Source: Escherichia phage HelliStehle_Bas95. From it: a stretch of DNA of 56,332 bases. Both the position numbers and the translations under genes were made by a program. Each line of letters begins with the position of its first letter. The first letter of the stretch is position 1. Of this stretch, positions 4,785-56,267 are shown piece after piece. The DNA is taken from the sequence record PQ850607.1; one strand, 5' to 3'. The notes under the pieces were generated by a model that worked only from the letters and a program-made list of their open reading frames with translations, had not been told where the DNA came from and made no database searches.

Positions 4785-4790
4785 TATCAG

Positions 4791-4804
4791 GGGGCTTCGG
4801 CCCC
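4791..4804 (+). other. GC-rich RNA hairpin GGGGC(UUCG)GCCCC directly after fibre gene
   Basis: C(UUCG)G tetraloop stem-loop; same element recurs after the capsid gene. Confidence 0.5.
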
Positions 4805-4826
4805 TTATTCATGGAGAAGTGACACA

Positions 4827-5129: not shown

Positions 5130-5166
5130 TACTATGGCTTGTCAATAACCAAACCGGAGATTTGCA

Positions 5167-6435: not shown

Positions 6436-6557
6436 TTTAACAATGCTTCTTGATTCAATGCGCGTAGTGCCGACTATTCGGCTGAACTGTCCGCTCTCAA
6501 ATCTGGCAAGTAATCCCCAGTCCTGCTATGATGCTCTGATTAACGGAGGATGAAATC

Positions 6558-18532: not shown

Positions 18533-18889
18533 ATGGGTTTCTTCGATAGCTTTCTCGACACCGCCAGCAGCGCTTTCAACTGGTTGGGTAACAACAAGAC
18601 AGCACTGGATTTGATTTCCGGCGCGGCGAAAGGATACGGTACCTACATGCAGTACCAGCAGAACAAGGAGGCGGCCAACCTCCAGAAGCAACAGATGAAA
18701 CAAGCACAGTCGCAGTACGATCAGTCACTGGCCTTCCAGAAGCAGCAGTACGAGGATGAGCAGCGACGAATCAAAGATAACACAGCAGCGCCAACCGCAT
18801 ACAACAACGCGTTACCTATGTCGGCTTTCGAGGCTGGCAATCTACTTTCGGGTAACATGGCTGACGCAATGAAGAAAGGAGCATTCTAA
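18533..18889 (+). CDS. hypothetical protein
   Basis: 118-aa ORF. Confidence 0.5.
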   Translation: MGFFDSFLDTASSAFNWLGNNKTALDLISGAAKGYGTYMQYQQNKEAANLQKQQMKQAQSQYDQSLAFQKQQYEDEQRRIKDNTAAPTAYNNALPMSAFEAGNLLSGNMADAMKKGAF

Positions 18890-19932
18890 TGTCATTCACA
18901 GGATTCGGTGGCGGCAAAGGGTCAATCAACTCCGGTAACCAGAACATGGCTTCCGGCAACCCTTCGTCCGCAAACTACGGCGGTGGCGGCAAGAGTAATA
19001 GCAGCTCATCCGGTAACGGTGGGAAGAACACTGGCGGAAACCTTTCGTCAAGTGCTAAAGCCAGTGACTCAGCTAAATCGTCGGCAACCAAATCGTCATC
19101 GACATCTACCGGTGGTGGAATCATGGGTGGTCTCACCAGTGCTGTACAATCTGCACGGTCAGCTCGCTCCACCACATCAACCACAGGTAAGTCGTCGATG
19201 TCCAGTAATATCGGCAACGCTGTAGCAAATGCGTTCGGTGGAAAGGATCAGTCGTCCAACTCAATGGGTACTGGCGCTTCAGGTTACGGCAACGACACCG
19301 CAGGTAGCGTGAGTAACAGCGTGGGTGCAATGAATACCGGGGAAGCCAAAGCCAAAGCCGCCAGCCAGATGAACGCGTTTAAATCCGGTTACCGTGACCA
19401 GGCTAACTCCAGCATGACGGGCGCAGCGTTCGGTGCTACCGGATCTATCGGTTCAGCTATCGGCGCTGGCATCGGTAAGGTGACAGGTACAGGTTACGCG
19501 CCGGGCAGCGACGAGGCCAATACGGCGTCGCGTGGTGCTGCATATGCTAACCAGAATGGTCTGAGTTCCACCGCGCGCGGATTAGGTTCAATGGCGGCTG
19601 GTATCCTCGGTGGTCCTGTAGGTTCGGCAATCGCCAGCCTGGCGCTGGGCGGTACGTCATATGCAATGCAGCGTAACGCCTTTCCGTCGGCCTTTGATGG
19701 TCAGCAGGATAAAGGGATCACCAGCGGTATGGCTATGAACAACGGCTCGGAAACCATGCGCGAAGGTGGTAATCAGGCAGGTGGCATCGCGGCATCCATG
19801 CAGCAAGCAGCGCAACCTGAACCCGTGGCCGCCGCACAACCAGCGCAGCAGGAACCTAACTTTGAGCACGCCAGCGATTACACTAACCAGCGTAACAGCA
19901 TGTGGAATCTCAACATGGGGAGTATCATCTAA
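18889..19932 (+). CDS. Gly/Ser/Ala-rich low-complexity virion protein (possible internal/ejection protein)
   Basis: 347 aa, extreme G/S/A/N composition. Confidence 0.5.
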   Translation: MSFTGFGGGKGSINSGNQNMASGNPSSANYGGGGKSNSSSSGNGGKNTGGNLSSSAKASDSAKSSATKSSSTSTGGGIMGGLTSAVQSARSARSTTSTTGKSSMSSNIGNAVANAFGGKDQSSNSMGTGASGYGNDTAGSVSNSVGAMNTGEAKAKAASQMNAFKSGYRDQANSSMTGAAFGATGSIGSAIGAGIGKVTGTGYAPGSDEANTASRGAAYANQNGLSSTARGLGSMAAGILGGPVGSAIASLALGGTSYAMQRNAFPSAFDGQQDKGITSGMAMNNGSETMREGGNQAGGIAASMQQAAQPEPVAAAQPAQQEPNFEHASDYTNQRNSMWNLNMGSII

Positions 19933-20450
19933 TGGGACTCAGCCAAGAATACATCCAGCGTCAACAGGCGCTGGCAGCACTGGTAACACAGTACAAAGCC
20001 GACGGCATTGATCATAACCAGGCGTGGAAGAAAGCCGAGCAAGTATACGACAGTGGTCAGTGGCAACCAGCAGTATCCGCTATCCAGAACGGTACCTGGG
20101 ATTCCGCTACGTCAGCACCACAGGCGCAAACCACGCAAACCACCCCGGCTGTAGATCCGGCAGGTAGTTACGCATCCACCGGGTCACAGTCAGTTCGCTA
20201 CCGTGGCTCGACGTCGCAGTCACGCGTCGGTAGTGATACTCGCGTACGTGGTGGTGTTGGCGATGTGGGTGAAGAAACTGCTAACATGGGTACTGCCATG
20301 CAACAGGCTGCTAACGAGGGCAAGCAAGTGGCCACTCCGGTAACCGAGCAAAACGTATCGTGGCAGGCTACACGTCAACCTACCGACCTAGCGTCAGTGC
20401 GTCAACGTGTGTTACAGTCAGTTTCCAATAACGTCAGAGGTGCACAATAA
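19932..20450 (+). CDS. hypothetical protein
   Basis: ATG at 19932 overlapping upstream stop (TAATG). Confidence 0.5.
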   Translation: MGLSQEYIQRQQALAALVTQYKADGIDHNQAWKKAEQVYDSGQWQPAVSAIQNGTWDSATSAPQAQTTQTTPAVDPAGSYASTGSQSVRYRGSTSQSRVGSDTRVRGGVGDVGEETANMGTAMQQAANEGKQVATPVTEQNVSWQATRQPTDLASVRQRVLQSVSNNVRGAQ

Positions 20451-21133: not shown

Positions 21134-22116
21134 TGAGCATCGGTGAAGCACTGGCGTCAATGTTTGCGGGTGCCGCTGGCGAAGCAGCAGGTAATCGGGC
21201 GGTAGAGATCCGCGACGAAGAAAAGGCACGCATCGCTGAAGCACGCGAAATGAAAATGATGGCACTCCAGCAGAAGTACCAGACGTCCGAGCGTGAGGCC
21301 AGTCAGGCTTACGGCACCGCTGAGCGTCAGGATACTCAGGGTTGGCAGTCTGGCGAGAAGCAGAAAGACCGTGACTTCCAGTCGTCTGAACGTGCTGCGT
21401 CTCAATCCTTCCAGGCGGTACAATCGGATAAAGCGCGTGCTTACCAGGACGCTAAAGAGAAGAAAGCGCAACTGGCGGCACAACAAGAATCCGCAGCGGC
21501 GGTAGGTAGTGTTGACGATTTAGGTAACGCTATCAAACTCGACGGTACACCTTATAAATTGGGTGGCCAGTGGTTGCGCGCTAAACAGTATGCTAACGGT
21601 CGCATTGTGGCTGAACCGCTGGGTGCTACCGCTGCCGAGAAGATGGATAGACGCGTAGCGCTTGAGAATGACGACGGTGACACGCAGAAGTCTCGTGATC
21701 TCACAATCGTTAAAGAAGGTATTAAATCCGGCGACACAACAGGTGTATTCGGTTCGTTTATCAACGCAGGCAACATGGCAGGTGACCTGGCGAGTGCTAA
21801 ACTCGGTAGCGAGAAATCACGCGATGTTTACAACGCTGTAAACCGTATCAATGGTGCGTTGTTGGCACAAGGCGTGGCCGATGCGAAAGCGATGGGTGCA
21901 TCGGGCATCAACACCGCGGCAGAAGCACAGATGTACTTCAAAGGATTGCCGTCGCTTGACTTGTCAAGCCCCGAAGCAGCAATGCGTGCCATTAACCAAA
22001 TCGATGCGTATAATAAAGACTTCAAGCAAAAGCAGCGGCAAGAAGTCGGGCTACCAGCGAACCCCGTGTCTAAACAAAGTAGCGACGGGTCGTTCGGTAG
22101 CAAATACGGTTATTGA
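21133..22116 (+). CDS. hypothetical virion protein
   Basis: 327 aa. Confidence 0.5.
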   Translation: MSIGEALASMFAGAAGEAAGNRAVEIRDEEKARIAEAREMKMMALQQKYQTSEREASQAYGTAERQDTQGWQSGEKQKDRDFQSSERAASQSFQAVQSDKARAYQDAKEKKAQLAAQQESAAAVGSVDDLGNAIKLDGTPYKLGGQWLRAKQYANGRIVAEPLGATAAEKMDRRVALENDDGDTQKSRDLTIVKEGIKSGDTTGVFGSFINAGNMAGDLASAKLGSEKSRDVYNAVNRINGALLAQGVADAKAMGASGINTAAEAQMYFKGLPSLDLSSPEAAMRAINQIDAYNKDFKQKQRQEVGLPANPVSKQSSDGSFGSKYGY

Positions 22117-22122
22117 TTCAAG

Positions 22123-22142
22123 CCGCCCTACGGGGCGGTTTT
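22123..22142 (+). terminator. intra-operon terminator/attenuator hairpin
   Basis: CCGCCC-tacg-GGGCGG followed by TTTT. Confidence 0.5.
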
Positions 22143-22157
22143 CACAGGAGTACTATC

Positions 22158-24362
22158 ATGGCACGTCCTTTTTCTGAAATCGCAGCATCCCCCGAGTTTC
22201 AGGCTGAAACACCGGAGACTCAGGAAGCAATCAAACAAGACTATTTCAATAAGGTGATCCGCCCACAGGTTGAGGCCAATGGGGACGACCCTGACGAGGT
22301 TTTCAACGACTTCTCGTCAAAGTACACATTCAAACAACCTGAAGCGCCTGTGCAGCAACCTGAAGCGCCTGTGCCGCAACAACAGGTTCAACCTTCACCG
22401 GAAGAACAGCAGGCCGCAGCAACCGTTCAGAACTATCTGAACAAGCCCGCTGAAACAGGTTACACCCTGGCCTCATCAGGTAGTGAACCACAGGAAACTA
22501 ATACCGGTATCATCGGTGCTATCAAAAATGCTGTTACTGGTGGTGACGCGGCGGAAGGTAGTGCCGCAAGTTTACCTCTGGCAGGTGAAGCGCCTGAGTT
22601 CTTTGGTAACGGTGTGGACGAAGAACTGAAGAACGGCGACGCACTAGACCAAATGCTCAATTGGGCTGGCAACAGGCTCGGAGGCATCGCTACGAATATG
22701 TTTGGTGGTGACGATTCAATCATCAAACGTGCGGAGTCTCGCGGTGGTAAGGTGTCACAGGATGAGCAGGGTAATGTAATCATTACTTTCCCGTCGGGTA
22801 AATATCAGGTTAACAAACCCGGTCTGGACATCAACGACGTTGCTAAATTTACGGCACAGGCAGCCCCTGCGGTCGCTACAGGTGGAGCGGGTGCAGCATT
22901 AGGTCTCGGCGGACGAATGGTCGCGCAGGGAGCGATTCAGGGCGGTTTAAACTACGCTCAGCAAAAAGCTGTAGAAGCTGGCGACGGTCAGAATGTTGAC
23001 ATGGGTGATGTTGCACTTAACGCGACACTGGGTGGTACTGGTGAGTTACTTGGCCCGGCCCTGCGCGGTGGTCGTGAAATTTTCAAACGCGGCTTAGGTA
23101 ATGCTGACGAGGCCACGAAAGAAGCGTTGAAGATTGCCGACGAAACAGGTATCCCAATCGCCACTTCCGACATGATTGCCGCAGGTGATCTCGGTGGCGG
23201 TGTAACAAAATACGCATCTGCGGTTACAGACAAGCTCGACCCGTTTGCCGCAGGTCGCCTGCGGCAACAGGAACTGATCCCGGAAAAGACCGCCGACATT
23301 TTTGTTGACCCTGAAGTCGCCGCAAAATATACAGACGAAGCTATGATTGAAGCGCTTGATAAAGGTAGTCGCGCACGCATGGCCGACGCTGGTAAACGCT
23401 TCGAAGAAGTGAAGACAGCTATGGGTGACCAGCCGATTCCCGTCCGAAATACCTCAGCGGCTATTGACGACGTGCTGAAAGAATGGGAACGCCCTGGGAC
23501 ACTCGTCGACAAAGGTGACATTGAATACCTGAAAGACATTCAGGCGAAGCTCACAGAAGCGCCACAAGATGTGATTATGCTTCGCGAAAACCGCACGCGC
23601 CTGCGTCAGTCGTTCGGATCCGGTATGAACAAAATGCTGGGTAAAAATGACCTTCAGAAAGCAGGGCGTAAAATTTACGACGCTTTGACTAAGGACATGC
23701 ACGAAGGTGTTGAAAACACGCTGGGTGCTGATGCTTTGACAACGCTCAAATCGGCCGACAAAGACTGGGCGTCTATCAATAGCGATTTAGGTTTCCAGAA
23801 AATTGCGGCAGCCGTTAAGAAAGGCGAGGCCGACCCCGCGCGACTGCGTGAAACGTTAACATCATTCGGCACGGGCGATCTACAAGCGCTTGACCGCAAT
23901 CTCAACGCCGAAGGTCGGAATATGATCAAAGGCGCTGTACATAAAAACTTAATGGCAGCTGCAACCAACGCTGACGGAGAATTTCAACCAGGGGCAATGT
24001 TGCGTGCCATTGAGAAAAACAAGGACGTCATCAAGCAGTTCTACACTCCCGAACAGGCCAAGCAGATTGAAGGTGTGAAGAAACTTCTGTCCACTGCGCG
24101 CGGTGCTAAGGCTGCAACGACCATTGCTAACAACGGTGGCTTGATGCTTCCTATCACTGCGGCGATGGGTGTTGGTTCGGCGGGAATCGGTGGTATTGCG
24201 GCGGCTGCGGGTGGTATTGCGGCTAAACGTTTGAGTAACTCTCGCCCAATGCGAAACGCGCTGATTCGTCTGTCCACCATGAAACCCGGCAGCATGGCCT
24301 ATTACAAGACAGTGAGACAAATCAACGCGATCATCGCGAATCAAGCATCTACCGACGAGTGA
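22158..24362 (+). CDS. large virion protein (possible internal/injection protein)
   Basis: 735 aa from ATG 22158 with SD ACAGGAG; last gene of the + morphogenesis block. Confidence 0.5.
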   Translation: MARPFSEIAASPEFQAETPETQEAIKQDYFNKVIRPQVEANGDDPDEVFNDFSSKYTFKQPEAPVQQPEAPVPQQQVQPSPEEQQAAATVQNYLNKPAETGYTLASSGSEPQETNTGIIGAIKNAVTGGDAAEGSAASLPLAGEAPEFFGNGVDEELKNGDALDQMLNWAGNRLGGIATNMFGGDDSIIKRAESRGGKVSQDEQGNVIITFPSGKYQVNKPGLDINDVAKFTAQAAPAVATGGAGAALGLGGRMVAQGAIQGGLNYAQQKAVEAGDGQNVDMGDVALNATLGGTGELLGPALRGGREIFKRGLGNADEATKEALKIADETGIPIATSDMIAAGDLGGGVTKYASAVTDKLDPFAAGRLRQQELIPEKTADIFVDPEVAAKYTDEAMIEALDKGSRARMADAGKRFEEVKTAMGDQPIPVRNTSAAIDDVLKEWERPGTLVDKGDIEYLKDIQAKLTEAPQDVIMLRENRTRLRQSFGSGMNKMLGKNDLQKAGRKIYDALTKDMHEGVENTLGADALTTLKSADKDWASINSDLGFQKIAAAVKKGEADPARLRETLTSFGTGDLQALDRNLNAEGRNMIKGAVHKNLMAAATNADGEFQPGAMLRAIEKNKDVIKQFYTPEQAKQIEGVKKLLSTARGAKAATTIANNGGLMLPITAAMGVGSAGIGGIAAAAGGIAAKRLSNSRPMRNALIRLSTMKPGSMAYYKTVRQINAIIANQASTDE

Positions 24363-24964
24363 TTACGGAAAGGGGTGTTGTACAGCCCCTTAATTTCTTT
24401 AATTGCTGCGGTCACGTTCGTAAACCAGACGATTCTAGCAAAGAACACGACCCCCAACGTACACCATGAAATGAACCATGTCATCGGGTCCATAACACCG
24501 AAGAATGCTGGCGCAAACGTCAGGGTGAACGCCATACCGACATAACCTACAACATTCATGACAGCATTAAACCACGACTTTTTAAGCATCTCGGTCATAG
24601 CAAAACGCATGGCTTCTTCTGTCAACTCTCCGCGATTAGTGCGCTTGATTTTGGATACGGTAGGTGTTTTCGACATGTTCAGGACAAACCACACACCACC
24701 AGTGATCACTAAAGTACCAACACTCAGTACATCAAAGGATAAACCTGCGACGATAAGTAACAGACCTACAGTCCAGTTGAAGGTGCGGGATGTACCGAAC
24801 AATGCGCCAAACACCGCCTGTGTAGTCCGCTGACCAACGTATTTCTTCAACGTCTCCAGGTCTTCAACTTTATAGCGATTTAACGACACTACGCGTACAG
24901 CGTGCAATCTGTTGTCAGCACCGTAGTATTTAACGTTTCTGTTTTTCTTCTCTGAATATTTCAT
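24341..24964 (-). CDS. polytopic membrane protein of unknown function
   Basis: 207 aa with about 4 hydrophobic helices; 3' end overlaps the convergent 735-aa gene. Confidence 0.5.
   Translation of the reverse strand: MKYSEKKNRNVKYYGADNRLHAVRVVSLNRYKVEDLETLKKYVGQRTTQAVFGALFGTSRTFNWTVGLLLIVAGLSFDVLSVGTLVITGGVWFVLNMSKTPTVSKIKRTNRGELTEEAMRFAMTEMLKKSWFNAVMNVVGYVGMAFTLTFAPAFFGVMDPMTWFISWCTLGVVFFARIVWFTNVTAAIKEIKGLYNTPFRNHSSVDA
24370..24391 (+). terminator. terminator hairpin closing the morphogenesis block
   Basis: AAGGGG...CCCCTT stem followed by AATTTCTTT. Confidence 0.5.
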
Positions 24965-25472
24965 AATTTTCTCTCACTATTCGTGTATAGCCGCGATTGT
25001 ATTTGAACTCTGGTCCCCAGTCTGTGACACGTGCCACATTGTGGAAATTATGCATTTCGATTCTGATTTGCGATTCTTTACAGCCAAACATGGCCGCTAT
25101 CTTGTCGCACCAGCTGAGATCCGTTTCAGCAATTCTGGCGACAACCTCATCGGCCACGGTTTGTGGAGAATCGATACCGTAAAGGTCTTCTATTTCCAGC
25201 CATAACTTAGTACCTGCCAGCCGCCTGGTCACCGACCACAACCATTGTGTATGTGCTGTTTGACCCAATGCTTTACGGGGTGACATATGCCCCAGTATTT
25301 CGTGCCTGGCGACTTCTTTCAGTCTGTAGGCAGGCATCGGGAAGAACACTACAGCTTCCTCACTGTACAGCGCCACCGCCTCAACGTTATAGGGCATCGG
25401 GTGAAACGACTCACACTTCAGATAATGAACGTCACATATACCGTCAACCAACCTGTCTACATAAGCACTCAT
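24930..25472 (-). CDS. HExxH-motif protein (putative ImmA/SprT-like zinc metallopeptidase)
   Basis: 180 aa containing VARHEILGHM; strong SD AAGGAGG; overlaps downstream membrane-protein gene. Confidence 0.45.
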   Translation of the reverse strand: MSAYVDRLVDGICDVHYLKCESFHPMPYNVEAVALYSEEAVVFFPMPAYRLKEVARHEILGHMSPRKALGQTAHTQWLWSVTRRLAGTKLWLEIEDLYGIDSPQTVADEVVARIAETDLSWCDKIAAMFGCKESQIRIEMHNFHNVARVTDWGPEFKYNRGYTRIVRENYEIFREEKQKR

Positions 25473-25492
25473 AGAGCCTCCTTTTCACGTCA

Positions 25493-25528
25493 AATATACT
25501 TGACGATGTTAACGCTGTCAAGTATATT
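25493..25528. promoter_or_regulatory. overlapping divergent sigma70-type promoters embedded in a 12-bp perfect inverted repeat
   Basis: + strand TTGACG-17-TATATT (25500-25528); - strand TTGACA-17-TATATT (25493-25522); AATATACTTGAC/GTCAAGTATATT dyad around GTTAAC. Confidence 0.6.
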
Positions 25529-25557
25529 CGGAAAACCACTAAACGGAGATCACATCA

Positions 25558-25769
25558 TGAATTTACCACCGTTACCACCATCGTCACAGATATTCAGAGA
25601 AACCCTGAAAATTGTCAGTGACGCTAAGTCACGCGGAGTAACCATCGGCAGCACTGTAAACTACGGCGGGTCGACGTATGTCGTCGATAAGTTTCACGGT
25701 AGGGCGGTACGTCTTCTTAACGACACAGGTGGCGCGATTATAGTTGACGTCAGAGAGGTCAACCGATAA
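25558..25769 (+). CDS. small hypothetical protein
   Basis: 70 aa; SD ACGGAG; downstream of + promoter. Confidence 0.5.
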
Positions 25770-25810
25770 GCTGTAGTTTCTCGATGACATTCCCTGTAGA
25801 TTGATAGCGC

Positions 25811-29448: not shown

Positions 29449-30039
29449 TTATTTTATTAAAAGTTTGTGCGCTTGAAAAATGTACCAAAGGTAATTCACA
29501 TTATTCCAGTCGAGACGGGAGGCCAGGCTACAATCTGATACAAGTTGACCTGAGCACATGCTTGATTCTGTCACATCACCCCATCGACTTTTATTCTTCG
29601 TGTGGATGCGCTCGTCGTGCGGCACCCCGGCAGCGTCCAGCTTGCGCAACATGGCGATCACCGGGTCAGCCAGCAGTTCCGCAACCACGCTGTCGTAATA
29701 CTGGTCCGTCAGTTTGTTCTTACGCTTCCACGTTCCGGGCGTACCCTTCGGTGCCGTGCGCTTAACTAGTGTGCCGCCGGACTGCGCGACGTAATACCGG
29801 ATAGTGTTGGACAACTTCTCTTCGTGGCCGTCCGGGTAAACCAGATGCAGCGACGAGTCACGGTTAACCTTGCCACGTAACATGAAGTCGTAAGGGTCAC
29901 GGTGGTTGATAATGAACGACGTTAAGTCTTTACCATAAACCATATGCTCCACCACCGCCTTCTGCACCACCAGGGCGGAGTGATCTTTATGCCACTCACG
30001 ATCGAATGCGTAAGCGCCTTTCAATTTCAACTTGCTCAT
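29449..30039 (-). CDS. hypothetical protein downstream of DNA polymerase
   Basis: 196-aa ORF, different frame from polymerase ORF, in-frame TGA 7 codons upstream of its ATG. Confidence 0.5.
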   Translation of the reverse strand: MSKLKLKGAYAFDREWHKDHSALVVQKAVVEHMVYGKDLTSFIINHRDPYDFMLRGKVNRDSSLHLVYPDGHEEKLSNTIRYYVAQSGGTLVKRTAPKGTPGTWKRKNKLTDQYYDSVVAELLADPVIAMLRKLDAAGVPHDERIHTKNKSRWGDVTESSMCSGQLVSDCSLASRLDWNNVNYLWYIFQAHKLLIK

Positions 30040-30169
30040 ACAGCCACCCTCTCGACGTCATAACCTTTACACTCGTGTCTATCACCAGCATGTCTGTGGA
30101 AATACGACGGTACCGATGTATGTAGTTTCATTTTCACCAAACCTTAATTACTTGACGATAGCAATATAG

Positions 30170-31711
30170 TTATTCGTACTCCGCAATATAATTGTTGCAA
30201 TCTCGAATGAACATTCGACTGTAACACGCTTCTTCAAGCTCTAACTGGGTAACCTGTTCCCACCACTTACACACGTTGTCAACATGTTCCAGATATTCCA
30301 CCGGACAGTAGTACGTGATACCGTCGGTATTACACTGAATCATCCGAAGGCCCGGAACTTTCAGTAATTGCTCAACCAACATACACAGTGAAAGCTGGCC
30401 TGATACAGTAATCGTGAGTGTGTACTGAGAATCGTAAAACGGGCTGTACGCATTGTTACTGTTGCCGTACGTACCGTTGAGGGCCAGCTTGAAAGCTCCG
30501 CCCATCATCGTCTTTTTACCTACACGCAGACGTTCGTTATACAAAAACTCGTATATCTCACAAAACTTTTCTGACAGGTGCGCAGGGTAAATCTTATTTT
30601 TGATTGCAAGGTTTGGGTAATAACTCGCAACGTCACGATCCCGCACTTTCATCTTATCGTCACTAACTATTATTTCTCTGTGTAACGATGCGTGCAATCC
30701 CCCTGTACCGAAGTCGTAATTGAAATCGTTGATACGACAATGCAAGCTGGCCGCCACAAACTTCGCACCCTCAAGGTCTGTACCCTCTGGCAAGTTGCAT
30801 AAGCGACGTGGCTTTTTAGAACCCTTCACCCACACTTTGATACGCTTCGGGTCCATCCACTTAATCATCTCAGGTGTACATACAATGTCTGAAAACGCAC
30901 CTTTAGTTTCCTTGATTGTCTGAGCGGCCAGGTAGTTCATTACCATTTGAAACGCGGGATGTTCCAGTTTGATGTAAGGTATGATGCATTCTTTCAGCGG
31001 TATCTCTTTACGAATGGTCTGACGAGGTACACGTTTACCGCCTTTCTTTTCGTAACACGGTACACCAGATTTCTCCAGTTCCGTGATGAACACCTCGGCC
31101 CCGATCTTAGTGTCATTATGGTTCATGAAGTCTTTTCCGTATTTCTCGGTAAGCTCTTCACGAAATTGAATCATGTCGTACGACGCCTTGTAAAACTCTA
31201 ATGTCGCATCAACGTCATGGTCGTTGTACGCCCACAGAATTTTCTTTTGGTCATCGTCCAGATGGGTACCGACCGGGAACGGCAGGTCTTCCACACTGTC
31301 CATACGCATTGATATCTCCAGCGCCTTCAGACTGGTAGCCTTAGCCTTGTTATCGAAGTGGTGGATCTTCAGCAGGTCAATCTGCGGTATCAGTCGAGCG
31401 TCAGCCCACATCGGGTAAGCGTTGTCACCTTTAATACGCTGCATGGCCTTCTGATAAATACCTGCTACGGATGCCCACGGATTTTCGTACAACCACTGCA
31501 AAATTTCCCAGTCAAACCACAGGTTGTTGTAACCTACCATACGCTGGTCGTTGTTACGCAGGTAGTTCATGAAATAGAAAAGTTTCTCCCTATCATCTCG
31601 ACGGTCAGATATTTCATAACGGTATCTGTTACCAGACACAGCATGAACCGCACTGAACGTGAAGATGTTGGGGTACGTTTCCAAATCGTAAACATAATCG
31701 CGAGCATCCAT
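30170..31711 (-). CDS. family B DNA polymerase (compact, exonuclease + polymerase motifs)
   Basis: YDLETYPN (Exo I), YNNLWFDWE (Exo II), DVASYYPNL (motif A), KLALNGTYGNSNN (motif B), NTDG in place of DTDS (motif C); 513 aa. Confidence 0.75.
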   Translation of the reverse strand: MDARDYVYDLETYPNIFTFSAVHAVSGNRYRYEISDRRDDREKLFYFMNYLRNNDQRMVGYNNLWFDWEILQWLYENPWASVAGIYQKAMQRIKGDNAYPMWADARLIPQIDLLKIHHFDNKAKATSLKALEISMRMDSVEDLPFPVGTHLDDDQKKILWAYNDHDVDATLEFYKASYDMIQFREELTEKYGKDFMNHNDTKIGAEVFITELEKSGVPCYEKKGGKRVPRQTIRKEIPLKECIIPYIKLEHPAFQMVMNYLAAQTIKETKGAFSDIVCTPEMIKWMDPKRIKVWVKGSKKPRRLCNLPEGTDLEGAKFVAASLHCRINDFNYDFGTGGLHASLHREIIVSDDKMKVRDRDVASYYPNLAIKNKIYPAHLSEKFCEIYEFLYNERLRVGKKTMMGGAFKLALNGTYGNSNNAYSPFYDSQYTLTITVSGQLSLCMLVEQLLKVPGLRMIQCNTDGITYYCPVEYLEHVDNVCKWWEQVTQLELEEACYSRMFIRDCNNYIAEYE

Positions 31712-35867: not shown

Positions 35868-38732
35868 ATGGCAAAACGTACCGCACGCCCCTATCAGGCG
35901 AAGGTTATCAATGAGTATTTCACCTGCCTACACGCAGGCTATAAGGCACCTGTGGTGATTCTCCCTACAGGCGGCGGCAAGTGCCTGGGTAAAGACACAC
36001 CCGTAATGTTAGCTGACGGAACAGTCGTTCCCGTGCAAAACATCAAGGTTGGCGATCAGTTAATGGGGCCGGATTCCAAACCGCGCAACGTGCTGTCATT
36101 AGCCCGTGGCCGCGAGGAGTTGTTCCGCGTGACTCCTGTTAAAGGCGACAGCTATGTTGTGAACCGTAGTCACATCCTCAGTGTTCGTCACACTGAGACG
36201 GGTGAAATTGTAAACCTGTCAATTGACGAGTGGTTGAGTAAGTCCAACTGGTTCCGTCATTGTCACAAAGGGTGGCGTACAGGTGTCAACTTCAGCGGCC
36301 AGGTTGATGACCCGTATCTCCCACCTTACCTGTTAGGTCTGTGGTTGGGTGACGGAACCAGCATTCACGCGGAGATAACGTCCGAAGACAGAGAGATTGC
36401 TGACTATCTTCGCAACTTCGCTAACGAAACAGGTCAGGAAATCCGCATCTGCGAACAACCAGGAAACAATTCTCACATCATAAAGATTGTGAATAACTGG
36501 TCGCGCGGTAAAACCATGACATCTTTACGCGACAATAATCTTGTAGACAACAAGCATATACCTCACGTTTACCTGACAGCATCAGCAGATCAACGTAAAC
36601 AACTGTTAGCAGGTCTGATTGATTCCGATGGTTGCGAACATCACGGAGGTTACGACTTCTGTTTCAAATCGGAAGCACTGGTTGACGATGTAGCGTACCT
36701 GTGTCGTTCACTCGGTCTGGCTGCATACGTCACTCCGTGCAAGAAGACAATCAAGTCTCGTAACTTCACGGGCAATTACTTCCGTCTGTCAGTGTCCGGC
36801 GACTGTTCAGATATTCCGGTTCTGTTACCACGTAAAAAGTGTGAACCACGTCAACAAAAGAAAAATGTTTTGAACACAGGTATCACGGTCGAGTCAATCG
36901 GTGAAGGTGACTACTACGGATTTGAGATTGACGGTGATCACTTGTTCCTGTTGGGTGACTTCACTGTCACACATAACACATTCATCTTTACTGAGATCAT
37001 CTCCATGATGGCCGCCGCAGGACACCGCTGCATAGTAATGTGTCACCGCTCGGAACTGGTGCGCCAAATTTCAATGAGTCTGGCAACACAGGAGTTGCAT
37101 CACGACTTTATATGCAGCGACAAGACTCGCGCGATCTGCGGTAACGTGCAGCAGGCAGAGTTCGGTCGCACATATTATCGTCCCGGCGCACCTATCGTTG
37201 TCGCTTCAGTACAGACAATCAACGCACGTATCAAAGAAAACCTGAAGGCTACCCCTCAGCGTAAAGCTATGCGCGAGGCCACGTTGCGGTTACTCGACAA
37301 CACCACGTTCGCCGTATTCGATGAGTCGCACCACCTCACCCGTGAGAATACTTTCGGTCGCCCTCTACAATACATGCGTGACACCACAAAGTTTTTGCTG
37401 GTGACAGCAACACCGGAACGTGCCGACGGTAAAGGTATGGGTGCTGTGTCAATGCAGGGTAGCGGGATTGCCGACGTGGTAATCAAAGGACCGGAAATGC
37501 GCTGGCTGATTGACCAGGGCAACTTATGCGACTATAAAATTTATGAGCCACCTACGGAACAGGCGGACTTTACTAAGGTGCGCGTGACGGCCAGCGGGGA
37601 CTACAACCAGCAGGACCAGGCGCGTGAAATGGACAAGGCTAAAATCACTGGCGATGTAGTGCGCCACTACCAGGAACTCATCAATGGAAAACTCACAATT
37701 GTATTTTGCTGTGACATCTCCCACGCTCAGTCTGTGGCCGACGCTTACCAACGGGCTGGCATTCCTGCCGCCGTACTCCACGGCGGAGACGACGAATCGA
37801 CGCGTTTCAAGACCCTCCAGTCTTTCGAGCGTCGTGAAATACTCGTGCTGGTTACCGTCGATCTTGTCTCAGAAGGGTTCGACTTACCAGCGATTGAAGC
37901 AGCCCAATTCTTACGACGTACAATGTCGCTATCCTGGTTCATGCAGGCGTTCGGTCGTGTCCTACGCCCGTCGCCAGGAAAAGAATATGCTGTTATTCTC
38001 GACCATGTGGGAAACTGGAGGGAGCATGGCCTTCCCGATAAGCCACGCGTCTGGTCAATGGCAGACAGAAAAGGCGGCAAGTCTTCGAGCAGCGATGATG
38101 ACACAGTTCCGGTTACCCGTTGTCGTGTCCCTGTCGACAAGTCCGGCAGGTTCACACCTGAGCAATGCGCAGTTATGTCGGCTGACGAACAATTTAACAA
38201 CGGGATTCGACCATGTGGATACATCTACGAAATTACCGAGTCACGCTGTCCTGATTGCGGCTGCCGACAGCCTCTGGCCCCACGTGGTGAACCCGTCATG
38301 GTTAAAGGTCAATTAGTGGAAGTGTCCGCTGAAGAACTGGCAAAGATGCGAGCGGGTGACGAGTCCATCAGCGACCAGGCTGCGGTGTGGCGTCAGGAGA
38401 TTCAGGAAGATTTACTCAAACTGAAGATGTCACCCGAAGAATACGTAGCCCGGATGCACGTACCAGCTATCGCTAAGAACACTCAGATCAATAACCATCG
38501 CCGCTGGCGCGCAATGCACGCTACTCGTCAACTATTACAGGACGAATGGATGGAGCACCACCAGAAAGGTGATGTGACTAAGGAAGCCGCACAACAGCTT
38601 TTCTTAAACCGCTTCGGCATCAACGTCTACTATGCGCAGGTGCTGAAACCTAAAGAGTGCTTTGAACTGATTGAGAAAATCAAAGCACACCTCGAAGAGA
38701 TTCATGCCAAAGGAGGCTTGACCTATGCGTAA
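35868..38732 (+). CDS. SF2 DNA helicase interrupted by an intein
   Basis: Walker A ILPTGGGK|(intein)|TFIF restored as GGGKT; DESHH motif II; VTATPER motif III; QAFGRVLR motif VI. Confidence 0.85.
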   Translation: MAKRTARPYQAKVINEYFTCLHAGYKAPVVILPTGGGKCLGKDTPVMLADGTVVPVQNIKVGDQLMGPDSKPRNVLSLARGREELFRVTPVKGDSYVVNRSHILSVRHTETGEIVNLSIDEWLSKSNWFRHCHKGWRTGVNFSGQVDDPYLPPYLLGLWLGDGTSIHAEITSEDREIADYLRNFANETGQEIRICEQPGNNSHIIKIVNNWSRGKTMTSLRDNNLVDNKHIPHVYLTASADQRKQLLAGLIDSDGCEHHGGYDFCFKSEALVDDVAYLCRSLGLAAYVTPCKKTIKSRNFTGNYFRLSVSGDCSDIPVLLPRKKCEPRQQKKNVLNTGITVESIGEGDYYGFEIDGDHLFLLGDFTVTHNTFIFTEIISMMAAAGHRCIVMCHRSELVRQISMSLATQELHHDFICSDKTRAICGNVQQAEFGRTYYRPGAPIVVASVQTINARIKENLKATPQRKAMREATLRLLDNTTFAVFDESHHLTRENTFGRPLQYMRDTTKFLLVTATPERADGKGMGAVSMQGSGIADVVIKGPEMRWLIDQGNLCDYKIYEPPTEQADFTKVRVTASGDYNQQDQAREMDKAKITGDVVRHYQELINGKLTIVFCCDISHAQSVADAYQRAGIPAAVLHGGDDESTRFKTLQSFERREILVLVTVDLVSEGFDLPAIEAAQFLRRTMSLSWFMQAFGRVLRPSPGKEYAVILDHVGNWREHGLPDKPRVWSMADRKGGKSSSSDDDTVPVTRCRVPVDKSGRFTPEQCAVMSADEQFNNGIRPCGYIYEITESRCPDCGCRQPLAPRGEPVMVKGQLVEVSAEELAKMRAGDESISDQAAVWRQEIQEDLLKLKMSPEEYVARMHVPAIAKNTQINNHRRWRAMHATRQLLQDEWMEHHQKGDVTKEAAQQLFLNRFGINVYYAQVLKPKECFELIEKIKAHLEEIHAKGGLTYA
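35982..36977 (+). mobile_element. intein (332 aa) with LAGLIDADG homing endonuclease domain
   Basis: Starts with Cys after GGGK, ends His-Asn before Thr; two LAGLIDADG motifs LLGLWLGDGTS and LLAGLIDSDGC. Confidence 0.85.
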
Positions 38733-38807: not shown

Positions 38808-38836
38808 TTGCAAGTTTCTTGTAAGCTGTGTATGCT
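38808..38836 (+). promoter_or_regulatory. sigma70-type promoter TTGCAA-17-TATGCT
   Basis: upstream of VRR-NUC gene. Confidence 0.45.
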
Positions 38837-38860
38837 CGGTTTCTCACTGGAGGAATTACC

Positions 38861-39271
38861 ATGTCACAAGCAGAGAAAAAGCTATTCGACCACAGCGCGA
38901 TGAAGATGCAGCGCGAGTACAAAGGGTTGTTGTATCGCAACAACTCCGGTGCATTACCCGACCGCAACGGTACGCTCGTTCGCTTTGGACTCGGCAATGA
39001 CTCCAAGCAACTCAACGAAGTGTGGAAGTCACCCGACTCCATCGGCGGCACGCCAATCACCATTACGCCTGAGATGGTAGGTCGCACGTTTCTTGTGTTA
39101 ACCGGATTCGAATTTAAGAAACCAGGCTGGCACATGACACCGGGGGACAAACGAGCGAAAGCCCAGCACGCCTGCATCCTCGACTGGCGACAGGCAGGTG
39201 GTATCGCAGGCTTCGTAACCGACGTTACCCATATCGACTACTACATTCAGGAATTTAAAAATGGCAAGTAA
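38861..39271 (+). CDS. VRR-NUC domain nuclease
   Basis: 136 aa; D...GFEFKK PD-(D/E)xK-type motif; SD GGAGGA. Confidence 0.55.
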   Translation: MSQAEKKLFDHSAMKMQREYKGLLYRNNSGALPDRNGTLVRFGLGNDSKQLNEVWKSPDSIGGTPITITPEMVGRTFLVLTGFEFKKPGWHMTPGDKRAKAQHACILDWRQAGGIAGFVTDVTHIDYYIQEFKNGK

Positions 39272-54052: not shown

Positions 54053-54373
54053 TGAGTTTGCGTGATAGATTTCGGGTAATGCATCATAACGCGTATTGTG
54101 GTCAATAGCCGCGAAGCATTCACTAGGCCCCGAAAGGTTGTGATACTCGGTACCGTCCAGCAATGTGACGCTCCACACGTTACCCAGACAACGGATGTGA
54201 ATGTCGCCCAGCTTATAATCGCCAGAGTCACACTTAACGAAACCGCGCGAGGTTAACATGTGGTTGATTGCGTAAGCGAGTAGCGAATCATAGTTAACGT
54301 CAATCATCCCGTTATACTGGTATTCAAGATACATGCGCCAGGATGGTAATGCCGTGCGATTGTGAATGAACAT
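54050..54373 (-). CDS. hypothetical protein
   Basis: 107-aa ORF. Confidence 0.5.
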   Translation of the reverse strand: MFIHNRTALPSWRMYLEYQYNGMIDVNYDSLLAYAINHMLTSRGFVKCDSGDYKLGDIHIRCLGNVWSVTLLDGTEYHNLSGPSECFAAIDHNTRYDALPEIYHANS

Positions 54374-54519
54374 ACCAATCCTTAACGCCGAGGAATGTTT
54401 CCACCTGGTCGCGCTCTACTGGTCCGCGAGCGGCATAGTTTGCGAAGTCTGCCTGATGACCTTTGTGGTTGATATACGATTTGAACATGTTTATTGCCTC
54501 TTTAAGTTAGATTAGTTGC

Positions 54520-54774
54520 TTACTTATGCTTAGGTTGCCAGTGTTTTAAGAGCACCTCCTTATCTTCAGGGTAATTTAACGAAGCACTCGCCGAAAATGT
54601 GCTCATGGTTGTGTAAACCTTACCGCCTACCATAAAACTTTCACTGCGTTGATGCGGTACCTCGACACGGCGACCGGAAGGTAGTACGCCTACAAAGGTA
54701 TCTCCGACTATTGACGACTTACCAAGCTGTAACCCACCCGGACAAACGTTATTGAACACGTCGTAAGGTCTCAT
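54520..54774 (-). CDS. hypothetical protein
   Basis: 84-aa ORF. Confidence 0.5.
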   Translation of the reverse strand: MRPYDVFNNVCPGGLQLGKSSIVGDTFVGVLPSGRRVEVPHQRSESFMVGGKVYTTMSTFSASASLNYPEDKEVLLKHWQPKHK

Positions 54775-55814
54775 AATTTAATCTCCCGTTTAAAGTTATC
54801 AGCTTTATTAGCGTTACTGGCATTGCGCATCAACATATAAGCCTGCATGGCCTCGCGGATCACGTGGCGGATGTGCTGCAGTATATCGAAGTGTCCCCCG
54901 GTTAAGCCTGGAGTGGTCAAAGCAATATTATTAATCCACGCCATATCTTCAGGGTATTCCATCACATCCTTACCCGTCTTGAGTCTGCCGCCAACACCAA
55001 CACCCTTGGCGTCCGTGTAGCGCAGGCTCCAGTCTTTGCGACCCTGGAGGCAAGGCAACTTATCATAAAGGTAAGCTACCGCAGGCGCTGGCGGCTCATT
55101 AACCCACATAAAAGCCATAGTGTCATGATGGTAGACGCTGGCCCGTGCCTGGCGGTAACGCTCAGACGCTGAATCAACGCACTTAACACAGCCGCCGTTG
55201 GACGTGTAGCGTTGAGTGGATGCGCAACGTTTGCAGGGTGTCGACTCGTAGAACTTTAAGCCCTGCTCTAAAGCCTGGCCTCGCGGCGACTCAACGCTTG
55301 GCCCTTTAATGCACATCACACAGCCGCCGTTAGAGGTGAAGCGCTCCGTAGTCCCACACTTACCACAAGGTGAACCGTCGTACCTTTTGAGGCCATTGGC
55401 TTTAGCTAACTGGCGGGGAGTCGGTGTACGGTCAAGCGGCTTTAAGCTGGCAATATGACATTGCTGACATTTTGTGGTTGTCACCAGTCTTGTGGTTGAA
55501 CCACATTTAACGCACGGCTGCCCTTCATATGTTTTAGCACCCGACGCTTTAGCTGCGATGCGTGCATCTACTATCGGCGACGGTCGACCGCCTCCACATC
55601 CTTTGCGCTGACACTCAACACAGGAACCGTTAGCTGTGTAACGTTCAGATCGCACACCTTCAAAACATTGTATACAAGGGCGTCCCCAGTAACGAGGGTT
55701 GCGCTCGGCGCGCGCTTCTCTTCTTGAGTCGGCTGGCGGTTGCCGCTTCCCTTTCTCCTCAGGTACGTTCTCATCCATCCAGGCGAAAACTTCGTTCATG
55801 TCTAACTCTTCCAT
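54771..55814 (-). CDS. early protein with five tandem zinc-ribbon repeats
   Basis: 347 aa; repeats of Y-x-G-x-PC-x-KCG-(S/T)-T-x-R-(Y/F)-T-S-N-G-x-C-V-x-C; first gene after the leftward early promoter. Confidence 0.6.
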   Translation of the reverse strand: MEELDMNEVFAWMDENVPEEKGKRQPPADSRREARAERNPRYWGRPCIQCFEGVRSERYTANGSCVECQRKGCGGGRPSPIVDARIAAKASGAKTYEGQPCVKCGSTTRLVTTTKCQQCHIASLKPLDRTPTPRQLAKANGLKRYDGSPCGKCGTTERFTSNGGCVMCIKGPSVESPRGQALEQGLKFYESTPCKRCASTQRYTSNGGCVKCVDSASERYRQARASVYHHDTMAFMWVNEPPAPAVAYLYDKLPCLQGRKDWSLRYTDAKGVGVGGRLKTGKDVMEYPEDMAWINNIALTTPGLTGGHFDILQHIRHVIREAMQAYMLMRNASNANKADNFKREIKL

Positions 55815-55846
55815 TGGTATACCTCCAGTTGTTTAGTTGAGATTGC

Positions 55847-55875
55847 AGTTTACTACAGGTTAGATAGCAGGTCAA
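55847..55875 (-). promoter_or_regulatory. leftward early promoter TTGACC-17-TAAACT
   Basis: read on - strand; AT-rich upstream region; about 26-nt leader with SD GGAGGT. Confidence 0.45.
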
Positions 55876-55881
55876 CTAACC

Positions 55882-56055
55882 AAACTCGTAGCCCTCCTAA
55901 AATATTCAAAAACTTTCTTAGAAATTTTGTAGAACACTAACTAAGTAATACTTATATATCTAACTTAATATACTATAATCTATTGCTTGCGATAATATAT
56001 ATCTAACTTAATGTACTATTCAGCAGCTTAAATATTTTGGGTGGGCTACGAGTTT
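55882..56055. repeat. control-region repeats: 13-bp inverted repeat pair flanking two 24-bp direct repeats
   Basis: AAACTCGTAGCCC (55882-55894) / GGGCTACGAGTTT (56043-56055); TATATATCTAACTTAAT(A/G)TACTAT at 55953-55976 and 55996-56019; CTAACTAAGTAA at 55937 and 56141. Confidence 0.6.
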
Positions 56056-56267
56056 AATACTTTAACGTTAGGTCTAACCTATACGTGGGTCTTCTTCTCT
56101 TCCTTCCAAATATTTTCAGGGTGCTAACACCCGTGGCCCCCTAACTAAGTAAAGCAGCCGTTAGCATCTAACTAAGCTCAAAGTTTAGCCAATTCCTGTA
56201 GCGCTATGCGAAATCTAAGAAAGCAGCAGGGTAAGACATCTGGCCTTTTTACGCAGACGCGCGATAT

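What the first reader, a model, noticed from the sequence alone, without database searches (positions are those of the whole stretch)
35982..36977. LAGLIDADG intein inserted in the P-loop of the SF2 helicase
The helicase reads ILPTGGGK, then a 332-aa insert beginning with Cys and ending His-Asn, then Thr-FIF. Removing the insert recreates a canonical Walker A GGGKT. The insert carries two LAGLIDADG motifs (LLGLWLGDGTS, LLAGLIDSDGC). This is a self-splicing, potentially mobile element in an essential replication gene, and helicase activity should depend on protein splicing.
Basis: partly seen in the sequence, partly recalled or inferred. Interest (0 to 1): 0.65.

Follow-up and report, generated by a model that had tools for sequence, protein, structure and literature searches.

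The report
Homing intein splitting phage helicase P-loop
A coliphage helicase gene, needed for infection in a close relative, is interrupted inside its ATP-binding loop by a 332-residue self-splicing intein with a homing endonuclease; this is a real and tidy example of an already well-known kind of mobile element.

Summary
Window 35982-36977 encodes a 332-aa insert (Cys1 ... His-Asn | Thr+1) between the Lys and Thr of the Walker A motif of a 954-aa SF2 helicase (ORF 35868-38732).

- **It is a PI-SceI-type intein.** Pfam, sequence matches to solved structures and a high-confidence AlphaFold model all identify a Hint domain plus a double-motif LAGLIDADG endonuclease. All splicing residues and the PI-SceI endonuclease catalytic residues are present.
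- **An empty site exists.** The two closest phages, Escherichia phages PTXU04 and Pondi, carry a 622-aa helicase (954 minus 332) with an uninterrupted GAGKT.
- **The flanks look imported.** A 121-nt tract around the insertion point is 38% diverged from PTXU04, against about 3% on either side. That fits co-conversion during homing.
- **The clade is large.** Same-site relatives (40-60% identity) occur in hundreds of phage, giant-virus and metagenome P-loop NTPases, always as GK|C...THN|T/S.
- **The host gene matters.** The PTXU04 ortholog gp41 is a "Fit" gene in a published knockdown screen, so splicing is very probably obligatory.

It is a new, divergent member of the classic P-loop intein class. 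Splicing and endonuclease activity are inferred, not shown.

The parts
35868..38732 (+). Helicase precursor ORF (954 aa plus stop): SF2 helicase interrupted by the intein
   Evidence: ORF list. Pfam ResIII, DEAD and Helicase_C lie on the extein parts, Hint and LAGLIDADG on the insert.
35868..35981 (+). N-extein (38 aa), ending in the first part of Walker A, LPTGGGK
   Evidence: Co-linear with residues 1-38 of PTXU04 and Pondi gp41.
35982..36977 (+). Intein, 332 aa: Hint splicing domain with an embedded double-motif LAGLIDADG homing endonuclease
   Evidence: translation; Pfam; PI-SceI E=8e-24; AF2 pLDDT 96.5; PI-SceI TM 0.80, E=2e-26. Absent from PTXU04 and Pondi.
35982..36020 (+). Intein block A (CLGKDTPVMLADG) with the Cys1 nucleophile
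   Evidence: Aligns to PI-SceI residues 1-13. Cys1 is invariant in 59 family members and in 80/80 viral loci.
36144..36185 (+). Intein block B (GDSYVVNRSHILSV): Asn61, Ser63, His64
   Evidence: His64 is invariant in the family. N-x-S-H is invariant in the same-site relatives. From my recollection of the PI-SceI sequence, this corresponds to PI-SceI Asn76/Thr78/His79.
36330..36362 (+). LAGLIDADG motif 1 (block C, LLGLWLGDGTS) with catalytic Asp124
   Evidence: Aligns to PI-SceI YLLGLWIGDG, Asp218. Asp124 is conserved in at least 90% of the family.
36549..36563 (+). NKHIP element with Lys191, the equivalent of PI-SceI active-site Lys301
   Evidence: Aligns to PI-SceI V-K301-N-I-P. Invariant in the same-site relatives and at least 90% conserved in the family.
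36603..36635 (+). LAGLIDADG motif 2 (block E, LLAGLIDSDGC) with catalytic Asp216
   Evidence: Aligns to PI-SceI FLAGLIDSDG, Asp326. At least 90% conserved. Pfam LAGLIDADG_3 and Hom_end.
36906..36977 (+). Intein blocks F and G (GDYYGFEIDGDHLFLLGD / FTVTHN) with His331 and Asn332
   Evidence: Aligns to the PI-SceI C-terminus ...DYYGITL..DHQFLLANQVVVHN. His331 and Asn332 are invariant. HN is present in 80/80 viral loci.
36978..38729 (+). C-extein (584 aa), starting with Thr+1, which completes Walker A (GGGK-T). Carries helicase motif II FDESHH (37317-37334), motif III VTATP (37401-37415) and motif VI QAFGRVLR (37944-37967)
   Evidence: The joined exteins are 92% identical in protein sequence to PTXU04 and Pondi gp41 over all 622 residues without gaps.
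35954..35981 (+). Upstream part of the diverged (co-converted) extein tract
   Evidence: Mismatch map and statistics.
36978..37070 (+). Downstream part of the diverged (co-converted) extein tract
   Evidence: The whole tract has 46/121 nt mismatches to PTXU04, against 6/209 in the adjacent flanks (Fisher p=4e-17). It is the most divergent 121-nt stretch of the gene.

Best explanation
Window 35982-36977 is a canonical class-1 intein of the PI-SceI (yeast VMA1) type. It has a Hint splicing domain with a monomeric double-LAGLIDADG homing endonuclease embedded in it. It sits in frame between the invariant Lys and Thr of the Walker A (P-loop) motif of the phage's SF2 replication helicase.

**Inferred mechanism.** The gene is translated as a 954-aa precursor whose ATP-binding loop is split, so the precursor should be inactive. 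The standard four splicing steps then follow: (1) N-S acyl shift at Cys1; (2) trans-esterification to Thr+1; (3) cyclisation of Asn332, assisted by His331; (4) O-N shift. These release the 332-aa intein and ligate a 622-aa helicase with an intact GGGKT.

**Inferred mobility.** At the DNA level the free intein's endonuclease cuts intein-less helicase alleles at the P-loop-coding site during co-infection. Repair from the intein-bearing copy copies in the intein together with adjacent extein sequence.

**Inferred history.** The element entered this phage lineage by such an event from a much more diverged helicase allele, leaving a roughly 120-nt co-conversion scar.

**Shown versus inferred.** Shown: identity, architecture, the residue set, the empty site in close relatives, the diverged flank and the family distribution. 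Inferred: that splicing occurs, that the endonuclease is active and what it targets.
For: 1. **Continuous ORF.** Cys1 ... His-Asn | Thr+1 at the stated coordinates.
2. **Domain matches.** Pfam Hom_end_hint 1e-19, LAGLIDADG_3 and Hom_end. PI-SceI by sequence at E=8e-24, covering the N-terminal Hint part (residues 1-51) and residues 104-332 to the C-terminus.
3. **Fold.** AF2 model pLDDT 96.5, pTM 0.93. Foldseek top hits are PI-SceI (E=2e-26, TM 0.80), then the Tli and Pho VMA inteins, PI-PfuI and I-DmoI.
4. **Catalytic set.** C1, H64, D124, K191, D216, H331, N332 and T+1 are all present, and all are invariant or at least 90% conserved in 59 family members.
5. **Empty site.** PTXU04 and Pondi gp41 are 622 aa with uninterrupted STGAGKTF. 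They are co-linear with the joined exteins and 92% identical in protein sequence. Genome-wide BLAST breaks exactly here.
6. **Diverged tract.** It spans nt 87-207 of the spliced gene. 31 of 41 codons differ, 19 of them synonymously, against 2/28 and 3/41 in the adjacent stretches. Fisher p=4e-17. It is the most divergent stretch in the gene, while PTXU04 and Pondi are 93-100% identical to each other there.
7. **Same-site relatives.** Helicases of Vibrio, Klebsiella and Salmonella phages carry the intein at the same site, with intein identity of 50-60% but extein identity of only 21-39%. All 80 IMG/VR loci read GK|C...THN|T/S.
8. **Host gene needed.** PTXU04 gp41 is a 'Fit' gene (PMC11879866 supplement).
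9. **Known site class.** The K|T position is described as the 'classic' P-loop intein site (PMC5050341).
Against: - No experiment here shows splicing or DNA cleavage.
- No relative closer than about 60% identity was found. The donor is therefore unidentified, and selection on this particular allele (dN/dS) cannot be measured.
- The helicase gene has other diverged patches (nt ~286-600 and others). Ordinary phage mosaic recombination could therefore have delivered the intein together with its flank, without the intein's own endonuclease acting.
- Block B has Asn/Ser where most inteins have Thr. PI-SceI, which splices, has the same Asn.
- The intein lacks about 120 residues of PI-SceI's DNA-recognition region (332 versus 454 aa), so the target-binding details may differ.
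Confidence: 0.93

Rival explanations
1. It is a splicing-competent intein whose homing endonuclease is no longer active, or has no available target. On this view it is a fixed, vertically inherited passenger that arrived by ordinary homologous or mosaic recombination rather than by endonuclease-driven homing.
For: The helicase gene is mosaic elsewhere too (diverged patches at nt ~286-600, 840-1100 and 1560-1720). No near-identical intein was found in four large collections. The empty sites of PTXU04 and Pondi differ from this phage's own flanks at many positions, so they may not be cleavable.
Against: The endonuclease catalytic residues (Asp124, Lys191, Asp216) and both LAGLIDADG helices are intact and model with high confidence. 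The divergence maximum of the whole gene is centred on the insertion point, as expected from break-initiated co-conversion.
Confidence: 0.3
2. The 332 aa are a stable accessory domain of the helicase that is not removed. For example, a Hint or LAGLIDADG-derived DNA-binding module could have been recruited by the enzyme.
For: Domesticated Hint and LAGLIDADG domains do exist in other proteins (general knowledge). Nothing in the present data points this way.
Against: The insert splits GK|T of Walker A, which would disrupt nucleotide binding if retained. The closest orthologs (92% protein identity) lack it exactly. The complete splicing residue set is conserved. Hundreds of relatives in unrelated NTPases keep the same GK|C...HN|T/S boundaries.
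Confidence: 0.01
3. It is an assembly or sequence artefact, or a separate free-standing homing endonuclease gene or intron that merely appears fused in frame.
For: None found. Considered because free-standing endonucleases and introns are common in phage replication genes.
Against: The single ORF has no internal stop or frameshift. The insert is an exact multiple of three, 996 nt. The Hint domain halves flank the endonuclease as in true inteins. There is no Rfam intron hit anywhere in the window. The same architecture recurs in independent phage genomes.
Confidence: 0.01

Closest known systems
PI-SceI (Saccharomyces cerevisiae VMA1 intein; PDB 1vde, 1ef0, 1lws)
   Same: Best sequence match (E=8e-24) and best structural match (TM 0.80). 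Same bipartite architecture of a Hint domain plus a double-LAGLIDADG endonuclease. Same catalytic residues: Cys1, Asn/His in block B, Asp218, Lys301 and Asp326 equivalents, and His-Asn at the end.
   Different: About 22% identity over the structural alignment. It is 122 residues shorter, mostly in the region corresponding to PI-SceI's DNA-recognition insert (query 52-103 versus PI-SceI 52-197). The +1 nucleophile is Thr rather than Cys. The host is a phage SF2 helicase P-loop rather than a V-ATPase subunit.
'Classic' P-loop (Lys|Thr) inteins of phage and cellular ATPases, for example mycobacteriophage TerL1-a, DnaB-b, MCM-a and RFC-a (Kelley 2016, PMC5050341; Novikova 2016, PMC4760082)
   Same: Identical insertion position between the invariant Walker A Lys and the Thr/Ser that serves as the +1 nucleophile. 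The host is a replication-type ATPase.
   Different: The host protein is a different family: an SF2 ResIII/Helicase_C helicase of a Xuquatrovirus-like coliphage. I did not align those specific inteins here, so the degree of sequence relatedness is untested.
Same-site inteins in helicases of Vibrio phages 393E50-1, 489E54-1, 1.009.O and PS65A.1, Klebsiella Jedunavirus (JD001, MEW1, pKp383) and Salmonella Cornellvirus and related phages (FSL SP-031 and others)
   Same: Same clade (47-60% identity over the full length). Same junctions, TG(G/A)GK|C...FTVTHN|T. In the Vibrio phages 393E50-1 and 1.009.O the gene neighbourhood is also the same, with a DUF2800 gene, a hypothetical gene and then the helicase.
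   Different: The exteins are only 21-39% identical. None is close enough to be the donor. The records annotate these genes simply as 'helicase', 'homing endonuclease', 'terminase' or 'hypothetical', not as intein-containing.
P-loop-to-P-loop intein spread among non-homologous proteins (Anaeramoeba cluster 1 inteins, PMC10710043)
   Same: Relatives of this intein occur in ResIII, DEAD and SNF2 helicases, DnaB, AAA ATPases, thymidine and dTMP kinases, PhoH and KaiC-like proteins, nearly always at xGK|C. The described pattern is the same.
   Different: That study concerns a eukaryote. Here the pattern is seen across phage, giant-virus and metagenome sequences, and only by junction tabulation. 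No phylogeny was built.

Membership tests
Intein (canonical class 1) | In-frame insertion within a host protein, precisely absent from orthologs, whose removal restores a conserved host motif | tested here: met
   954 versus 622 aa. PTXU04 and Pondi read STGAGKTF uninterrupted. The joined exteins are co-linear with them and 92% identical.
Intein (canonical class 1) | Block A with an N-terminal Cys or Ser nucleophile | tested here: met
   Cys1 in CLGKDTPVMLADG. Invariant in the family.
Intein (canonical class 1) | Block B with a conserved His (TxxH-type motif) | tested here: met
   VVNRSHIL. His64 is invariant. The Thr position is Ser63, and Asn61 stands where, from my recollection of the PI-SceI sequence, PI-SceI has Asn76.
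Intein (canonical class 1) | Blocks F and G ending in His-Asn, followed by a +1 Cys, Ser or Thr | tested here: met
   ...DYYGFEIDGDHLFLLGDFTVTHN|T. HN is invariant. The +1 residue is T or S in 80/80 viral loci.
Intein (canonical class 1) | Hint fold | tested here: met
   AF2 model pLDDT 96.5. Foldseek matches PI-SceI, the Tli and Pho VMA inteins, PI-PfuI and Prp8 inteins. Pfam Hom_end_hint.
Intein (canonical class 1) | Autocatalytic protein splicing that yields ligated exteins | not testable with these tools
   Needs expression followed by SDS-PAGE and mass spectrometry. Indirect support only: the host gene ortholog is a 'Fit' gene in PTXU04, and Walker A is split in the precursor.
LAGLIDADG homing endonuclease (monomeric, double-motif) | Two LAGLIDADG helices, each ending in a catalytic acidic residue | tested here: met
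   LLGLWLGD124G and LLAGLIDSD216G align to PI-SceI Asp218 and Asp326. At least 90% conserved.
LAGLIDADG homing endonuclease (monomeric, double-motif) | Pseudo-dimeric alpha-beta-beta-alpha-beta-beta-alpha core fold | tested here: met
   Foldseek matches to I-DmoI and I-Tsp061I over about 180 residues (E~1e-6), and to the PI-SceI endonuclease domain. Pfam LAGLIDADG_3 and Hom_end.
LAGLIDADG homing endonuclease (monomeric, double-motif) | Site-specific cleavage of the intein-less allele, and homing | not testable with these tools
   Only indirect evidence: the diverged tract centred on the insertion site, and inteins more conserved than their exteins across hosts.
SF2 helicase (host protein) | Walker A (motif I), motif II DExH, motif III and motif VI, with ResIII and Helicase_C domains | tested here: met
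   GGGK|T is restored on excision. FDESHH, VTATP and QAFGRVLR are present. Pfam ResIII 2e-11 and Helicase_C 8e-13. Weak sub-threshold similarity to RadD, XPB and RecQ models.
Bacterial intein-like (BIL) or Hedgehog-type Hint domain (considered) | A Hint domain without the canonical C-terminal His-Asn plus +1 nucleophile, without a homing endonuclease, and located in variable regions of non-conserved proteins | tested here: not met
   This element has HN|T, an embedded endonuclease, and sits in the most conserved motif of the host. It is therefore not filed here.

The most novel reading that the evidence does not exclude
The intein is a recent and still mobile invader of the Xuquatrovirus-like coliphage lineage. 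Intein-plus (this phage) and intein-minus (PTXU04, Pondi) alleles of a required helicase gene both exist in culturable E. coli phages. This pair could therefore serve as a tractable system to watch intein homing, co-conversion and possible marker exclusion in real time during phage co-infection. The P-loop intein might additionally act as a conditional (for example redox- or metal-sensitive) switch on replication.
Probability: 0.25. Interest if true: 0.45.

Novelty: new member of a known kind. Interest (0 to 1): 0.27.

Why it matters
**For annotation.** The gene should be described as an intein-containing helicase precursor with a 622-aa mature product, not as a 954-aa helicase or a 'homing endonuclease'. 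Many same-site relatives in public phage records are mislabelled or labelled only 'hypothetical'.

**For biology.** The phage's replication very probably depends on protein splicing. The sharp co-conversion scar beside an exact empty site in sister phages is a clean natural record of intein acquisition.

**For experiments.** The host is E. coli and the intein-less relatives are isolated phages with gene-fitness data. That makes this a convenient system for testing intein homing between phages.

It does not change current understanding of inteins.

Tried and rejected
- **MAFFT misplacement.** The MAFFT protein alignment of the precursor with the intein-less orthologs put the 38-aa N-extein inside the intein. 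I replaced it with an ungapped comparison of the computationally spliced gene.
- **Donor search.** I looked for a donor or near-identical intein in four collections:
  - GenBank phages: best 59.5%.
  - The 5.8-billion protein database: best 54%.
  - IMG/VR: best 55%.
  - JGI and ENA metagenome contigs: best 56%.

  No donor was found. The exact precursor sequence is not in the 15-billion protein collection.
- **Flank resemblance.** I asked whether the diverged flank looks more like the flanks of intein-bearing relatives than like PTXU04. By eye, on the roughly 10 residues each side listed, the matches are about equal, so I make no claim.
- **Composition.** The intein is 48.3% GC, against 52.8% for the exteins and 51.5% for the window. 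That is only a mild shift and not decisive.
- **Other copies and RNA elements.** An Rfam scan of the whole window found no intron or other RNA family. tblastn of the intein against the window found no second intein.
- **Parsing failure.** A regular expression meant to delimit the second intein in Vibrio phage PS65A.1 picked the wrong start. Its boundaries are taken from the alignment only.
- **Rejected readings.** I considered and rejected a stable accessory domain, a BIL/Hedgehog Hint domain, a free-standing endonuclease or intron, and an assembly artefact (see rival explanations and the membership test).
Full report
**Observation.**
The + strand ORF 35868..38732 encodes 954 aa. It reads MAKRT...APVVILPTGGGK, then CLGKDTPVMLADG...GDFTVTHN, then TFIFTEIISMM.... 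Translating 35982-36977 gives 332 codons without a stop, starting with Cys and ending His-Asn. The description is therefore exact.

**What the insert is.**
- *Domain matches.* Pfam places Hom_end_hint (E=1e-19), LAGLIDADG_3 and Hom_end on the insert. It places ResIII, DEAD and Helicase_C on the flanking parts. NCBIfam gives only sub-threshold similarity of the exteins to RadD, XPB, RecQ and restriction-enzyme helicases, which is consistent with a generic SF2 helicase.
- *Solved structures.* Against the PDB by sequence, the best matches are all PI-SceI, the yeast VMA1 intein (E=8e-24). The alignment covers the N-terminal Hint part and then runs from the first LAGLIDADG motif to the C-terminal His-Asn.
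- *Catalytic residues.* In that alignment, PI-SceI endonuclease residues Asp218, Lys301 and Asp326 correspond to Asp124, Lys191 and Asp216 of this intein. Block B is N61-R-S63-H64. From my recollection of the PI-SceI sequence, this matches PI-SceI N76-A-T78-H79.
- *Family conservation.* In an alignment with 58 database relatives, C1, H64, H331 and N332 are invariant. D124, K191 and D216 are at least 90% conserved.
- *Fold.* An AlphaFold2 model built from that alignment is very confident (mean pLDDT 96.5, pTM 0.93). Its best structural matches are:
  - PI-SceI (E=2e-26, TM 0.80);
  - the Thermococcus and Pyrococcus VMA inteins and PI-PfuI;
  - for the central domain alone, I-DmoI and I-Tsp061I.

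All sequence and fold criteria for a canonical intein with a double-motif LAGLIDADG endonuclease are met.

**Genome context and the empty site.**
- *Closest phages.* The window is nearly a whole phage genome, co-linear with Escherichia phage PTXU04 (genus Xuquatrovirus) and phage Pondi. Local identity ranges from 67 to 96% (most long segments 75-93%), and several regions are replaced.
- *Likely source.* The BASEL-completion paper describes a third relative, HelliStehle (Bas95). It is co-linear with PTXU04 at 58% global identity, and its genome is oriented from the small terminase gene. This fits the window, and the paper does not mention an intein (PMC11990801). The identification is plausible but unverified.
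- *Empty site.* In PTXU04 and Pondi the helicase gene is 1869 nt (622 aa), exactly 954 minus 332. After removing 35982-36977 computationally, the window's gene is also 1869 nt. It aligns to both without gaps at 88-89% nucleotide and 92% protein identity. Their sequence reads STGAGKTFCF where the window reads PTGGGK|TFIF.
- *BLAST break.* Whole-genome BLAST against PTXU04 breaks at 35954-37006.

The opposite is found.

**Trace of acquisition.**
Extein identity to PTXU04 and Pondi falls to about 52% in a narrow interval centred on the insertion point. In the same interval PTXU04 and Pondi are 93-100% identical to each other.
- *Bounds.* The diverged tract runs from nt 87 to 207 of the spliced gene. 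In window coordinates this is 35954-35981 and 36978-37070.
- *Density.* It holds 46 mismatches in 121 nt, against 6 in the 209 adjacent nt (Fisher p=4e-17). It is the most divergent 121-nt stretch of the gene.
- *Codons.* 31 of 41 codons differ, 19 of them synonymously. The tract is therefore a piece of a much more distant allele, not locally accelerated protein evolution.

This is what co-conversion of flanking exteins during endonuclease-initiated homing produces. The caveat is that the gene has other diverged patches. Ordinary mosaic recombination bringing in the intein with its flanks cannot be excluded.

**The family.**
- *Phage records.* tblastn of the intein against GenBank phages finds 653 records. 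The best are helicases of Vibrio phages (59.5%), Klebsiella Jedunavirus (51-53%) and Salmonella Cornellvirus and related phages (47%).
- *Inspected loci.* In five of these the intein sits at the same place, TG(G/A)GK|C...FTVTHN|T. In two Vibrio phages it sits in the same DUF2800 / hypothetical / helicase module.
- *Intein versus extein.* Intein identity (50-60%) exceeds extein identity (21-39%) in every case, as expected for an element that moves between host genes.
- *Other NTPases.* In the large protein database, 559 relatives (E<=1e-10) occur in ResIII, DEAD and SNF2 helicases, DnaB, AAA ATPases, thymidine and dTMP kinases, PhoH and KaiC-like proteins. They are nearly always inserted after xGK.
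- *Viral and metagenome loci.* All 80 retained IMG/VR loci read GK|C...HN|T/S, including giant-virus MAGs. A metagenome scan adds hundreds more.
- *No close relative.* Nothing exceeds about 60% identity, and the exact precursor is not in the 15-billion-protein collection. This allele is new and its donor lineage is unsampled.

**Comparison with the literature.**
- Novikova et al. document enrichment of inteins in P-loops of replication ATPases, including SF2 helicases (PMC4760082).
- Transfer of related inteins between P-loops of non-homologous proteins has been described (PMC10710043).

The present element is thus a new member of a well-characterised kind.

**Function of the host gene.**
In a transcriptome-wide dCas13d knockdown screen, the PTXU04 ortholog gp41 is one of only 17 'Fit' genes. 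It is annotated there as the replicative DNA helicase (PMC11879866 supplementary files 1 and 16). The intein separates Lys and Thr of Walker A. The inference is that the precursor cannot bind or hydrolyse ATP properly, and that splicing is required for phage replication. This is an inference from established P-loop biochemistry and from the ortholog's phenotype, not a result obtained here.

**Verdict.**
Confidence that this is a bona fide, splicing-competent intein with an embedded LAGLIDADG endonuclease is about 0.93. Confidence that the endonuclease is currently active and can home into PTXU04-type alleles is much lower, roughly 0.25 to 0.6 depending on the target. Novelty is 'new member of a known kind', and interest is modest.

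Noticed in passing
window 29449-30039 and 30170-31711 (- strand), spacer 30040-30169: The DNA polymerase is encoded as two separate ORFs of 513 aa and 196 aa, in different frames. A ~130-nt spacer with stops in all frames separates them. PTXU04 has one continuous 721-aa gene (gp35). The second ORF has its own Shine-Dalgarno-like GAGAGGGTGG and ATG. The spacer has no significant RNA structure (z=-0.97) and no Rfam hit. This may be a genuinely split polymerase or the remnant of a mobile-element insertion.
   Followed up: partly
window 2372-3910 (- strand), within the 2376-6523 region absent from PTXU04: A 512-aa ORF lies on the opposite strand between the large terminase gene and the tail-fibre genes. 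It carries DUF4379 treble-clef zinc-finger repeats and a sub-threshold REase_MTES_1575 nuclease domain. PTXU04 has no counterpart here. It may be a mobile nuclease or a defence/anti-defence gene.
   Followed up: partly
L007 (Vibrio phage PS65A.1, MW824434) helicase, alignment A3 columns ~535-680: This 1043-aa helicase carries the same P-loop intein plus a second, smaller intein-like insert in motif II (…QDE|CFPAGTLITM…VVHN|CHH…). It is a two-intein phage SF2 helicase annotated only as 'hypothetical protein'.
   Followed up: no
window ~37150-37470, ~37710-37970 and ~38430-38590 (spliced-gene nt ~286-600, 840-1100, 1560-1720): Further patches of the helicase C-extein are 70-85% identical to PTXU04. 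In the last patch the window is nearly identical to Pondi instead. This shows mosaic recombination among Xuquatrovirus-like helicase alleles, independent of the intein junction.
   Followed up: partly
whole window (1-56332): The window is essentially a complete genome co-linear with PTXU04, starting at the small terminase gene. Its last ~157 nt match PTXU04 positions 89-245. Large replaced blocks lie at 2376-6523, 14123-15816, 18662-20402, 21417-25778 and 54060-56175. It plausibly corresponds to the BASEL phage HelliStehle (Bas95), described as 58% identical to PTXU04.
   Followed up: partly
L029, L033, L034, L038-L041 and many other IMG/VR loci (GVMAG contigs): The same intein clade (41-47% identity) is abundant in giant-virus metagenome-assembled genomes. 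It sits in a protein with the P-loop context ILEVPCG(R/K/A)GK|C...THN|TVMALKII. I did not identify the host protein.
   Followed up: no
window 38828-39271 (+ strand): The small ORF immediately downstream of the helicase is the ortholog of PTXU04 gp42. The CRISPRi-ART re-annotation lists gp42 as an 'endonuclease' with Semi-Fit status. Its relation to the helicase is unexamined.
   Followed up: no
GenBank phage records listed (e.g. NC_020204 JD001, ON809761 SeF1, MG592395): Intein-containing helicase genes carry inconsistent annotations: 'terminase large subunit', 'DarB-like antirestriction', 'homing endonuclease' or 'hypothetical protein'. The intein is generally not annotated.
   Followed up: no
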